From Anolis carolinensis (Eukaryota): DNA of 64,000 nucleotides. The DNA lies in contig NC_085843.1 in NCBI RefSeq assembly GCF_035594765.1, forward strand, positions 259,323,971 through 259,387,970, written 5' to 3'. The stretch's first letter is position 1, and every line of letters begins with the position of its first letter. This document shows, piece by piece, positions 42,401 through 43,868 of the stretch. The notes under the pieces are model-generated. The model made no database searches. It saw only the letters and a list, made by a program, of their open reading frames with translations, and had not been told where the DNA came from. The position numbers and the translations under genes were made by a program.

Positions 42401-42927
42401 GTGATAATGGGTTCAGTGTCTGTGGCATGGCAGACCTTGGCTACAAGGCAATGGTTTTGGCAATATTTTGAAGCAAACTGCAGTTCTCTGTTGGACCAGG
42501 AGATGCTTGGGTCGTGGAGTGTCAGCCATGGAATTCCCAAAATCACAGGGAAATGGGGAACCTCGGTAACAAAGAAGGAAATCTCTTCCATATGTTCCCT
42601 TATCCACATTCTGGTGGGTTCCGACCACTGGCTTACTGGACCCGTCTTGAGGGGGCGGCCATCGATGGCTTGCACCACACGGGCGTTCTTGAAGTCGTGA
42701 TATTGTAATCCCAGAGAGTCGGCATACTCTCTATCAATGAAGTTGTTTGTGGCTCCTGAGTCTATCATGGCATGGACCATGACGGGCCCTTTTTTTGCTG
42801 ACCACAAGGTGACCACTAGAAGAAATAGGACCCCGGTTGGCGGCTCTTGAGTGGGTTTTTTGACCGGGTTGGTGAGCCTCTCTACGCCCGGTCGCTGGCT
42901 TCCCCCGCCGGCTGTGCGCCAGCCGCC
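39163..42927 (-). CDS. pol: Pol polyprotein (aspartic protease, RT, RNase H, integrase, chromodomain) in the -1 frame relative to gag
   Basis: Frame is open from 42927 (after TGA at 42928-42930) to TAA at 39163. Protease IDSGA (about 42754-42762), RT YLDD (41821-41832), RNase H DASD/EKELLA/TDH/ADALSR, integrase HHCC + D,D(35)E + GPY/F, chromodomain FEVQDILDSR...YLIDWVGFGPEERSWE (about 39511-39669). Confidence 0.96.
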   Translation of the reverse strand, partial: GGWRTAGGGSQRPGVERLTNPVKKPTQEPPTGVLFLLVVTLWSAKKGPVMVHAMIDSGATNNFIDREYADSLGLQYHDFKNARVVQAIDGRPLKTGPVSQWSEPTRMWIREHMEEISFFVTEVPHFPVILGIPWLTLHDPSISWSNRELQFASKYCQNHCLVAKVCHATDTEPIITLPKKYSEYWDVFNEKEAERLPPHRPYVCAIDLVEGAPIPRGHLYSLTEPEQEALREFIESNLRKGFIRPSQSPAASPVMFVKKKSGDLRLVVDYRALNNITKRNSYLLPLISDLLDRLRGAKVYTKLDLRGAYNLVRIREGDEWKTAFQTKFGLFESRVMNYGLCGAPATFQHFVNDIFQDYLDRFLIIYLDDFLVFSRSQSEHENHVRMVLQRLRDHGLYAKLEKCAFDLQEVDFLGYRVLPLGLSMDPAKVSAVMEWRAPTNKKEVQRFLGFANYYRKFIPDFARWSDPITSCIRGKQPFRWTDQAEKGFQQLKKLFTSQPILQHPDPETPFVVQADASDVAIGAVLLQPVGDHLHPCAFYSRQLTAPERNYTIWEKELLAIKAAFETWRHWLEGAKFPIEVHTDHRNLEHLRTARKLNQRQQRWALFFERFNFQIHYVTPAQTKQADALSRKPEYAAGRKETFESQLLQPENFATLTVGNTKSTPIESTPSTPGPLCAQEIRASQQADAWAQDQLRQGLHFPFSLKDGLLCYRNHVYIPPGPGREKALRLCHDCKPAGHFGLFKTMHLILRDFWWPKIRKDVEKYVNTCPVCQRSKTRREKPSGLLHPLPTPSHPWEIISADFITDLPPSCGFTTILVVVDLFTKLAHFIPCDGLPTAKETADLFLQHVFRLHGLPKSLVTDRGSQFTSRFWQALQKLLGIDSRLSSAHHPQTDGQTERTNATLEQYLRCYVNYQQDNWASLLSLSEFAYNNGVQASTKETPFFANYGFHPRFFPPVIETSEVPAAEDWLQELTAVQQLLLQQLDQAKEDYKRHADKHRQPGPEIKVGDLLSTRFLPSHRPCRKLDARFIGPYPVVAQLNPVTFKLQLPRSMRIHPVFHRSLLLPADGVRPDADRPAPTPVLVNGEEEFEVQDILDSRFHRRRLQYLIDWVGFGPEERSWEDASTVHAPELTRRFHQTYPAKPRPRASGRESQFERGLEEGDSVMVHGPCSPVPSAVVTDEEENLGFPPFQPEKELSQPEMEPLHLQEVCIPEVCQTSPEPKSPPFSRHDFCKQQRGVEQASRRSARIAAKHSAD
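39443..39467 (-). other. Polypurine tract (plus-strand primer)
   Basis: Minus-strand AGAGGGGGCTTGAGGAGGGGGATAG abuts the TG of the 3' LTR. Confidence 0.9.
42842..42906 (-). other. Putative -1 ribosomal frameshift signal (slippery site plus pseudoknot)
   Basis: G_GGG_GAA (42906-42900), 6-nt spacer, stem 1 GACCGGG/CCCGGTC, stem 2 GGCTC/GAGCC. Confidence 0.6.
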
Positions 42928-43868
42928 TCAGACGTCTTCGTCTCCGTGGAGGACGCCGCCGCCAGTCGTGCGGCGGGCTTCCCCTTGGCTGGACACTCTC
43001 TGGCGAAGTGGCCCCCGTTTCCGCAGTACCAACAGAGATTTAGGCGTTGGCGGCGGGCCTTCTCGGCGGCATCTAATCTGGGACGCACATTGCCCAACTG
43101 CATCGGCACCTCCTCGCTCCCTCTGGGGTATGGGGCTGGTGGCGGGGGTCTCCATACTGGACGCGGCTGGACGCCGGTGGGAGCGGGAAGTTTCGCCCCA
43201 GCTCTACCGCTCTGGCCTCGGACCCATTGTTTTCTGTTGGCAAGCATGACTTCAGCTCGTAAACATTGATCAATGAGTGCTTCGAGAGAGTGGGGGGGAT
43301 CCACCTTGGAAATTTCCTCCAACATCTCGATGTTGAGACCCTCCCGAAATTGACCTCTGAGGGCTATGTCGTTCCATCCGGTGCTGTGGGCCAGCACTCG
43401 GAACTCGGCTATGTACTGGGACAATGGTCTGTCCCCCTGAGAGAGGCGCCGGAGTTTATGGCCGGCTGCCTCCAAATTGTCTTCGATCCCCCAAGTCGCC
43501 TTAATGTGATCCAAGAAGTGTTGCGCTGATCTTAGATGTGGGGAAACTTGGTCGAACAGTGCCGTCGCCCAGTTGGCCGCTGGCCCGTCTAAAAGGCTGT
43601 AGATCCACGCCACTTTGATGTCTTCTTGGGGAAACTCGGCATTGCGGGCCTCTAGATAAGCCTGGCATTGGCGACGGAAAACATGAACCTTAGAAGCTTC
43701 TCCAGAAAACTTGGTTGGCAACGCCAGGGCCGGGAGACGGATTCCGCGTTCCTTCAAACCCTTTATTTCTCCCTCTTGCGCATTGAGCTTATCACGGATG
43801 CGGTCCACTTCCTCCTTGTCGATGGTGTAGCTGAGTGGCTGGCCTCCCGGTCCGGCTCCGGTAGACAT
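42882..43868 (-). CDS. gag: Gag polyprotein, 328 aa (PEG10/RTL-like capsid plus CCHC zinc knuckle)
   Basis: ATG 42 nt downstream of the 5' LTR. Coiled-coil N-terminus, LPTKFSG...F..QC..Y capsid motif, LSQGDRPLSQYIAEF major-homology-like region, knuckle CWYCGNGGHFAREC. Confidence 0.96.
   Translation of the reverse strand: MSTGAGPGGQPLSYTIDKEEVDRIRDKLNAQEGEIKGLKERGIRLPALALPTKFSGEASKVHVFRRQCQAYLEARNAEFPQEDIKVAWIYSLLDGPAANWATALFDQVSPHLRSAQHFLDHIKATWGIEDNLEAAGHKLRRLSQGDRPLSQYIAEFRVLAHSTGWNDIALRGQFREGLNIEMLEEISKVDPPHSLEALIDQCLRAEVMLANRKQWVRGQSGRAGAKLPAPTGVQPRPVWRPPPPAPYPRGSEEVPMQLGNVRPRLDAAEKARRQRLNLCWYCGNGGHFARECPAKGKPAARLAAASSTETKTSEAAGAQPAGEASDRA

What the first reader, a model, noticed from the sequence alone, without database searches (positions are those of the whole stretch)
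42842..42930. Unusual gag-pol recoding site: non-canonical slippery heptamer plus pseudoknot, with a canonical heptamer behind the stop
Seen: pol is in the -1 frame and overlaps gag by only about 43 nt (42927-42885). The overlap has no canonical X_XXY_YYZ; the best candidate is G_GGG_GAA. Six nt later come a perfect 7-bp stem (GACCGGG 42893-42887 / CCCGGTC 42868-42862) and a second pairing (GGCTC 42878-42874 / GAGCC 42846-42842), with the gag UAG in loop 1. A canonical A_AAA_AAC (42861-42855) is in the gag frame but 7 codons past the UAG. Established: PEG10 uses G_GGA_AAC plus a pseudoknot. Inference: Pol is made either by atypical slippage or by UAG readthrough followed by a -1 shift, which would be a rare double recoding event.
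Basis: partly seen in the sequence, partly recalled or inferred. Interest (0 to 1): 0.7.

Follow-up and report, generated by a model that had tools for sequence, protein, structure and literature searches.

The report
Phage-style frameshift site in lizard retrotransposon
A young retrotransposon family of an anole lizard keeps a non-standard slippery sequence (G_GGG_GAA) at its gag-pol junction, ahead of a predicted RNA pseudoknot, and likely makes its Pol enzymes by one -1 ribosome slip there, at a type of site I found described only in bacteriophages.

Summary
The element is a very young Ty3/gypsy chromovirus (identical 945-bp LTRs, 5-bp target duplication) of a large Anolis carolinensis-type family. 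G_GGG_GAA is a family trait, not a copy mutation. In contigs of four runs (4469, 988, 583, 628 laid), no variant of 3% or more falls in the heptamer, the four stem arms or the UAG, while spacer and loops vary (0 of 31 vs 9 of 34 positions, p=0.0016). Gag lineages only 78% identical to each other end in the same P-A-G-E. The downstream A_AAA_AAC loses its canonical form in 29-40% of depth and has no stimulator behind it, so readthrough plus shift is not supported. A stop in loop 1 is ordinary (PEG10; 8 of 9 comparable relatives). None of 40 related -1 junctions has G_GGG_GAA. That heptamer is the annotated -1 site of actinophage tail chaperones, where tRNA-Glu would re-pair on GGA with a mid-codon U-G. 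Best reading: one pseudoknot-stimulated -1 shift at G_GGG_GAA (0.75; inferred, no translation data). It is a new variant of a known kind, worth a reporter test.

The parts
43911..44855 (-). 5' LTR, 945 bp, TG...CA
   Evidence: identical to the 3' LTR; the one mismatch of the 949-nt match lies outside the LTR
44856..44860 (-). target-site duplication, 5' copy (5 bp)
   Evidence: same 5 letters at 38493-38497
43899..43908 (-). primer-binding-site position; 10 of 10 nt complementary to LTR 44429-44438, as expected for self-priming (inferred)
   Evidence: I1; self-priming of the Tf1/Sushi group: PMC6317226 passages
42882..43868 (-). gag, 328 aa, Retrotrans_gag + CCHC knuckle, ends at TAG
42900..42906 (-). 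slippery heptamer G_GGG_GAA in the gag frame, 15 nt before the stop
   Evidence: no variant of 3% or more in four runs; G-E / G-G-G-S / R-R-G-K in 9 of 9 junction-spanning proteins
42894..42899 (-). 6-nt spacer; 42895 varies (39-57% of depth), length does not
   Evidence: (tables 3, 4)
42887..42893 (-). stem 1, 5' arm
   Evidence: invariant
42882..42884 (-). gag UAG inside loop 1
   Evidence: invariant
42874..42878 (-). stem 2, 5' arm (predicted)
   Evidence: invariant
42862..42868 (-). stem 1, 3' arm
   Evidence: invariant
42847..42861 (-). A-rich loop between stem 1 and stem 2; holds the non-conserved A_AAA_AAC (42861-42855)
   Evidence: variants at 42856 (29-40%), 42855 (26-34%), 42851, 42850
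42842..42846 (-). stem 2, 3' arm (predicted)
   Evidence: invariant
39163..42927 (-). pol frame (-1 to gag): protease, RT, RNase H, integrase, chromodomain; first ATG 42780, six codons before the protease Asp; runs into the 3' LTR
39447..39470 (-). polypurine tract
38498..39442 (-). 3' LTR, 945 bp

Best explanation
The gag-pol junction carries a family-conserved G_GGG_GAA heptamer, a 6-nt spacer and two invariant complementary pairings, and Pol is likely made by one -1 ribosomal frameshift at that heptamer, stimulated by a predicted H-type pseudoknot. Shown: ORF geometry, conservation of heptamer, stems and stop, and variation confined to spacer and loops. Inferred: the ribosome would stall on stem 1 with GGG (Gly) in the P site and GAA (Glu) in the A site. 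tRNA-Gly would re-pair perfectly on GGG, and tRNA-Glu on GGA with a U-G wobble at the middle codon position, giving ...P-A-G-E-S-Q-R-P-G-V-E-R. If only the P-site tRNA slips, the product would read P-A-G-G-S-Q. Most ribosomes would melt the structure and stop at the loop-1 UAG, giving Gag.
For: (1), region 42750-43000, four runs of four studies, 4469/988/583/628 contigs at 80% or more identity, differences listed from 3%: none in heptamer, stem arms or UAG, no indels; 0 of 31 core vs 9 of 34 other cassette positions, Fisher p=0.0016; stems alone 0 of 24 vs 9 of 34, p=0.005; pol-only third codon positions 0 of 6 vs 13 of 26, p=0.03. (2) 9 of 9 database proteins that span the junction fit GGGGGAA in three frames; gags P0001 and P0201 are 83% and 88% identical to this gag and 78% to each other, and both end P-A-G-E-A-x-D-R-x-stop. 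(3) Register: 34 of 40 related -1 junctions have a heptamer with an intact A/U A-site codon within 21 nt of the gag stop; 9 have it 15-18 nt before the stop, 8 of these with the stop in loop 1, the layout seen here. PEG10-like gags P0017 and P0021 have G-N at the same -7 position as G-E here. (4) The family has been active: identical LTRs and target duplication; pol clusters of 366 and 94 members at 98-99% identity. (5) Pol codons 5' of the first ATG are constrained: 9 of 11 variants in 42830-42781 are at third positions, p=0.0014. (6) Precedent for the heptamer: in phage L5 GGGGGAA lies in the gp24 frame 18 nt before the stop, and a -1 shift there gives the 273 codons of the annotated two-piece gp25; about a thousand annotated actinophage sites read GGGGGAA, with G:U re-pairing proposed (PMC10274946 passages).
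Against: No translation data; nothing here shows a frameshift product. The stems show no compensatory change: they are invariant, and part of that is coding constraint (the 5' arm of stem 1 and the heptamer lie in the overlap). The Fisher tests treat positions as independent. Stem 2 is only 5 bp and the pseudoknot score is moderate (17 of 1000 shuffles). In human cells most single changes in slippery sites abolished shifting, and non-canonical patterns worked only in their own context (bioRxiv 10.1101/469692 passages). The exceptions listed in the passage seen of PMC5009743 concern the P-site triplet, not the A-site. 0 of 40 relatives use this heptamer. A canonical master lineage below 3% of depth or below 80% identity would not show. 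Contig depth is not copy number.
Confidence: 0.75

Rival explanations
1. Double recoding: readthrough of the gag UAG, then a -1 shift at A_AAA_AAC seven codons later.
For: A_AAA_AAC is in the gag frame and is among the shiftiest heptamers (PMC5009743 passage). The UAG is invariant. Three of seven spanning proteins keep K-K, consistent with the still canonical A_AAA_AAU.
Against: Position 42856 differs in 29-40% of depth in all four runs (77, 38, 23, 26 contigs), which breaks the A-site codon; 4 of 7 spanning proteins show the same loss. No above-chance structure behind it (145 of 500). The conserved stems sit 6 nt behind the other heptamer and would be melted before the UAG is read (inference). 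UAG invariance is explained by the pol codons over it, and UAG ends gag in 6 of the 9 relatives with this layout and an ordinary heptamer.
Confidence: 0.03
2. -1 shift one codon earlier, at G_GCG_GGG (42909-42903; spacer 9 nt), with the same stimulator.
For: One mismatch by the simple count and perfect A-site re-pairing; also invariant (42913-42896).
Against: P-site tRNA-Ala would keep one of three pairs; G-rich A-site codons are poor in eukaryotic -1 shifting (recalled); a 9-nt spacer is outside the 5-8 nt quoted in PMC11299033; relatives' heptamers map to the G_GGG_GAA register.
Confidence: 0.07
3. Gag-Pol or Pol comes from a spliced mRNA, for example through the acceptor-like site ending at 42816.
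For: A YAG with 11 of 14 pyrimidines before it ends at 42816, in front of the protease. Automated gene models (P0008, P0162) jump frames in this area.
Against: The A of that AG differs in 5-10% of depth. 5 of 6 variants in 42840-42817, which would be intron, are at third positions of the pol frame, p=0.018. Splicing would not explain the invariant heptamer and stems. The other YAGs have 4-8 of 14 pyrimidines.
Confidence: 0.08
4. Pol starts at an internal ATG (42780 or 42768), or the pol frames are passengers and the copies are mobilised in trans by another family.
For: Database pol models start at this ATG (P0164, P0165). Another Anolis chromovirus (P0186) has F-G-K-R at its junction, compatible with a canonical G_GGA_AAC.
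Against: The first ATG is six codons before the catalytic Asp, which would cut off the protease N-terminal strand (inference). Codons 5' of it are constrained (9 of 11 third-position variants). Hundreds of near-intact pol frames do not fit passengers. P0186 gag is only 35% identical.
Confidence: 0.05
5. This copy is a mutant of a canonical site.
For: The copy does carry private or rare letters nearby (42873 differs from about 100% of depth; 42787 from 85-96%).
Against: No heptamer variant of 3% or more in four runs; same codons in gags 78% identical to each other.
Confidence: 0.02

Closest known systems
PEG10/Edr -1 frameshift signal (Sushi-ichi-derived mammalian gene)
   Same: Gag in frame 0, pol in -1; heptamer, short spacer, H-type pseudoknot with the gag stop in loop 1 (PMC13622457 Fig. 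1 legend; PMC4598141 passages); heptamer codons at -7 from the gag end in PEG10-like proteins P0017 and P0021 (the PEG10-like label is my recognition of their ends).
   Different: PEG10 uses canonical G_GGA_AAC with a 5-nt spacer; here G_GGG_GAA with 6 nt, so the A-site tRNA is Glu, not Asn, and needs a mid-codon U-G. PEG10 is domesticated and single-copy; this is a young multi-copy element with full pol.
Tail-assembly-chaperone -1 site of actinobacteriophages (L5 gp24/gp25; corynephage phi16)
   Same: Identical heptamer G_GGG_GAA in the same phase, 18 nt (L5) vs 15 nt before the zero-frame stop; phi16 is described with GGGGGAA plus a predicted H-type pseudoknot (PMC5506516 passage).
   Different: Bacterial ribosomes, with an internal Shine-Dalgarno proposed for phi16; unrelated genes, so convergence. 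That the L5 site was verified by experiment (Xu et al. 2004) is recalled; I saw that paper only as a reference entry.
Tf1/Sushi-group chromoviruses (fungal and vertebrate Ty3/gypsy)
   Same: LTRs, gag-CCHC, PR-RT-RH-IN-chromodomain, self-priming-type PBS; -1 gag/pol overlap with a predicted pseudoknot.
   Different: 34 of 40 related -1 junctions have A/U A-site codons (G_GAA_AAC, A_AAA_AAC, G_AAA_AAA, A_AAA_AAA, G_GAU_UUU, G_GGA_AAN and others); 6 had no candidate near the stop; none has G_GGG_GAA.
Viral non-canonical -1 sites (G_GU, G_GA, G_UU, U_CC in place of X_XX)
   Same: A heptamer that departs from X_XXY_YYZ with a 3' stimulator (PMC5009743 passage).
   Different: Those depart in the P-site triplet; here the P site is perfect and the A site departs.

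Membership tests
Tf1/Sushi-group chromovirus (Ty3/gypsy) | Two LTRs with target-site duplication | tested here: met
Tf1/Sushi-group chromovirus (Ty3/gypsy) | gag, then protease-RT-RNase H-integrase order, C-terminal chromodomain | tested here: met
   RVT_1 257-417, RNase H 480-610, integrase 722-890, Chromo 1088-1136
Tf1/Sushi-group chromovirus (Ty3/gypsy) | Self-priming PBS instead of a tRNA PBS | tested here: inconclusive
   10-nt perfect complement between 43899-43908 and LTR 44429-44438; transcript 5' end unknown
Tf1/Sushi-group chromovirus (Ty3/gypsy) | RT phylogeny within the vertebrate (V) clade | not tested
   no tree built; nearest named pol hits are Anolis, frog and newt proteins
Canonical eukaryotic -1 frameshift signal | X_XXY_YYZ heptamer in the overlap, zero frame | tested here: not met
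   none; best is G_GGG_GAA
Canonical eukaryotic -1 frameshift signal | Stimulator 5-8 nt downstream | tested here: met
   stem 1 begins 6 nt after the heptamer; range from PMC11299033
Canonical eukaryotic -1 frameshift signal | Stimulator is a pseudoknot (stem 2 forms) | tested here: inconclusive
   predicted (17 of 1000 shuffles) and invariant, but no compensatory change and no probing
Canonical eukaryotic -1 frameshift signal | Transframe product made | not testable with these tools
   needs reporter, mass spectrometry or ribosome profiling
PEG10-type signal | G_GGA_AAC | tested here: not met
PEG10-type signal | gag stop in loop 1 of the pseudoknot | tested here: met
   PMC13622457 legend
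Actinophage G_GGG_GAA site | GGGGGAA phased G_GGG_GAA shortly before the zero-frame stop, long -1 frame behind | tested here: met
   window; L5
Actinophage G_GGG_GAA site | Tail-chaperone gene read by bacterial ribosomes | tested here: not met
   eukaryotic retrotransposon gag-pol; works-like only
Readthrough plus frameshift (double recoding) | Downstream heptamer conserved in the family | tested here: not met
Readthrough plus frameshift (double recoding) | Stimulator behind the downstream heptamer | tested here: not met
   145 of 500 shuffles score as well; weak fold, z +0.7

The most novel reading that the evidence does not exclude
Vertebrate ribosomes shift -1 at G_GGG_GAA by tandem slippage, with tRNA-Glu re-pairing through a middle-position U-G. 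This would be the first eukaryotic case of the actinophage-type site, reached by convergence, and a class of signal that X_XXY_YYZ scans of animal genomes and viruses miss.
Probability: 0.5. Interest if true: 0.65.

Novelty: new variant of a known kind. Interest (0 to 1): 0.5.

Why it matters
Eukaryotic -1 sites are taken to need an A-site codon of the AAN or UUN type, and the exceptions I saw listed relax the P-site triplet. A family that spread to hundreds of copies with G_GGG_GAA in that place suggests the A-site rule can be broken in a vertebrate. It offers a natural 65-nt cassette for testing whether the A-site tRNA must re-pair, since tandem and single slippage predict different peptides (G-E-S vs G-G-S). 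If it works, frameshift scans should add this motif. If efficiency is very low, it shows how little Pol such an element needs. The architecture itself (heptamer, pseudoknot, stop in loop 1) is known, and the exciting double-recoding idea does not hold.

Tried and rejected
No genome is held for this window, so copies could not be listed one by one, and linkage between variants is known only from proteins. No second copy of the element lies in the window. Rfam gave nothing relevant for 38400-45000 (one chance hit, E 0.96). One search listed no run on record as RNA; X13 and X10 are only guessed to be RNA, so expression is not assessed. One search listed no joints in the 251-bp stretch, but contigs on so short a stretch cannot exclude splicing, and 103 loose ends were not shown. 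Loose ends at 42913 occur in the DNA-type runs too (X1, X4), so they mark diverged genomic copies, not a splice. The invariant run 42913-42907 5' of the heptamer is not beyond chance at about 24% variable sites (my estimate, about 0.15). A gag alignment was too variable for a locus scan; an RT alignment was used. Of 134 loci plus the window, 45 had no CCHC upstream, 26 had a broken pol frame or no protease motif, 18 were single-ORF, 3 were same-frame with a stop and 2 had no RT match; 40 relatives plus the window were -1 junctions. These relatives are unnamed metagenome contigs, probably mostly fungal, some redundant (L049/L077, L007/L010), and none is a close squamate relative. The tally line printed 7 for stop-in-loop-1; its rows and the recount give 8 of 9, with a loose one-base boundary. 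Three ASDR pattern hits (P0060, P0189, P0191) were chance matches and were dropped from the junction count; P0201 was added. P0004 (Anolis sagrei) has S-G-E after the knuckle, but without DNA it was not counted. Literature: searches found 0 papers; one search found 4 (3 listed, all phage); others (6 listed; one found, 10 listed) showed by title no eukaryotic G_GGG_GAA site, and I did not open the non-phage ones; one search showed nothing on this family's junction by title and abstract start; PMC3483164 was irrelevant. Manktelow 2005 and Gao 2003 were not held; Gao 2003 and Repbase entries could already record this site. No supplements were read. Earlier scan findings: none.
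Full report
Observation. Every coordinate of the finding checks out on the minus strand: heptamer 42906-42900, 6-nt spacer, 7-bp stem 1, 5-bp stem 2, gag TAG 42884-42882 in loop 1, and A_AAA_AAC 42861-42855 in the gag frame behind the stop. Pol is open in the -1 frame from 42927 for 1254 codons. The overlap has no canonical heptamer in the gag frame. 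Stem 1 is the predicted fold of the 43-nt core (z -3.6), though longer windows are not exceptional. A simple pseudoknot score is matched by 17 of 1000 shuffles.

The element. It is a complete Ty3/gypsy chromovirus: gag with a CCHC knuckle, then protease, RT, RNase H, integrase and chromodomain. It has identical 945-bp LTRs (44855-43911, 39442-38498), a 5-bp target duplication and a polypurine tract. The primer-binding position is complementary over 10 nt to the LTR, as in the self-priming Tf1/Sushi group (PMC6317226, passages). The closest named proteins are from Anolis carolinensis, with pol clusters of 366 and 94 members at 99% and 98% identity. So the host is very likely an anole and the family large and recently mobile (inference).

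Is G_GGG_GAA a copy mutation? No. Contigs of four runs from four studies were laid on 42750-43000 (4469, 988, 583 and 628 contigs, 80% identity or more, differences from 3%). Differences were listed at 37 positions. None lies in the heptamer, any stem arm or the UAG, and no indel was listed. Within the 65-nt cassette, 0 of 31 heptamer and stem positions vary against 9 of 34 spacer and loop positions (p=0.0016). For stems alone it is 0 of 24 (p=0.005). In the pol-only part, 0 of 6 third codon positions in stems vary against 13 of 26 outside (p=0.03). Limits: depth is not copy number, variants under 3% are hidden, positions are not independent, and invariant pairs give no covariation. Independently, nine database proteins span the junction in three frames and all fit GGGGGAA: two gags, six pol-frame models of three kinds and one third-frame model. 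The two gags are 83% and 88% identical to this one and 78% to each other, and stop at the same place.

Is it double recoding? Very unlikely. Position 42856 differs in 40, 29, 34 and 36% of depth, which turns the A-site codon of A_AAA_AAC into ACC; 42855 differs in 26-34%, which keeps a canonical form. Four of seven proteins spanning it show the loss and three keep K-K. The 90 nt behind it score no better than chance (145 of 500). In favour of the idea, the UAG is invariant, but pol codons overlie it and UAG ends gag in 6 of 9 relatives with the same layout.

Other routes. An internal start is disfavoured: the first pol ATG is six codons before the protease Asp, and 9 of 11 variants in 42830-42781 are at third positions of the pol frame (p=0.0014). 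An acceptor-like site ends at 42816 (11 of 14 pyrimidines). However, its A differs in 5-10% of depth, and 5 of 6 variants just 5' of it are at third pol positions (p=0.018). Splicing is disfavoured but not excluded, since no suitable RNA data were available.

How unusual? An RT alignment brought in 134 loci, of which 40 have a readable -1 junction. Of these, 34 have a heptamer with an intact A/U A-site codon within 21 nt of the gag stop, 6 have none there, and 0 have G_GGG_GAA in the gag frame of the overlap. Nine place the heptamer 15-18 nt before the stop, and 8 of these put the stop in loop 1 of the best predicted pseudoknot (rows, recount). Among 78 gag relatives ending soon after the knuckle, G-N, E-N, G-K and P-K at -7 or -8 are the commonest candidate pairs, and G-E at -7 occurs only in the Anolis relative. 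The cassette therefore sits exactly where relatives keep an ordinary heptamer; only its A-site codon is odd. PEG10 has the same layout with G_GGA_AAC and the stop in loop 1 (PMC13622457, passages and legend; PMC4598141, passages).

Mechanism. The most likely route is one -1 shift at G_GGG_GAA (0.75). Shown: geometry and conservation. Inferred: a stall at stem 1, perfect P-site re-pairing of tRNA-Gly, and A-site tRNA-Glu moving from GAA to GGA with a middle U-G, or a P-site-only slip. The same heptamer is the annotated site of actinophage tail chaperones. In L5 it lies in frame 18 nt before the gp24 stop and gives the annotated 273-codon fusion. PMC10274946 (passages) reports it for about a thousand annotated sites, notes that these are not experimentally tested, and proposes the same G:U pairing. 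PMC5506516 (passages) predicts it with a pseudoknot. Against easy acceptance: in human cells most point changes in slippery sites abolished shifting and non-canonical patterns were context-bound (10.1101/469692, passages), and the exceptions listed in PMC5009743 (passages) are P-site ones.

Novelty. The signal type is known, and the heptamer is known in bacteria-infecting viruses. My searches showed no eukaryotic case, but the library lacks most subscription journals, two key papers were not held, and supplements were not read. I file it as a new variant of a known kind: it works like the PEG10 signal but fails its defining heptamer. Interest 0.5. The double-recoding claim falls, but a conserved A-site exception in a vertebrate is surprising to a recoding specialist and can be tested with a 100-nt reporter.

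Noticed in passing
window 43899-43908 and 44429-44438: The primer-binding position is a perfect 10-nt complement of a site about 420 nt inside the LTR, suggesting self-priming and a transcript start near 44438.
   Followed up: partly
window 42873: This copy differs here from about 100% of depth in all four runs. The letter in other copies is complementary to 42886, and the 42886 variant (1-17%) would still allow a wobble, so stem 1 may extend past a 4-nt bulge in the family; not folded.
   Followed up: partly
window 39163-39442: The pol frame runs about 280 nt into the 3' LTR, adding a tail of some 90 residues beyond the polypurine tract.
   Followed up: no
window 42913: 9-10 contigs in each of three runs match only up to 42913 and differ 5' of it: a more diverged lineage with another gag linker but the same cassette (table 7; compare the ends of P0001 and P0201).
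   Followed up: partly
P0001, P0003, P0004: Database proteins named as host genes (calmodulin-lysine N-methyltransferase isoform, a PRKY-like kinase, an unnamed hexosaminidase-like model by my recognition) consist of or contain gag of this family: mis-annotation or exon capture.
   Followed up: no
P0004 (Anolis sagrei): Has S-G-E after the knuckle at about the place of P-A-G-E, hinting that the G-E site is older than one species; no DNA to check.
   Followed up: no
L082-L134: 53 chromovirus-like RT loci sit in contigs of bacterial and archaeal genome bins, most likely eukaryotic contamination of those assemblies.
   Followed up: no
L059, L070, L072, L075: Four related elements have G_GAU_UUU directly before the gag stop, the P-site-relaxed site known from plant and insect viruses.
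   Followed up: no
L032, L100, L101: Three related elements have gag and pol in one frame separated by a single stop (candidate readthrough or decay); not examined.
   Followed up: no
P0006: A 1027-residue protein made of about 12 tandem repeats of a gag C-terminal knuckle segment.
   Followed up: no
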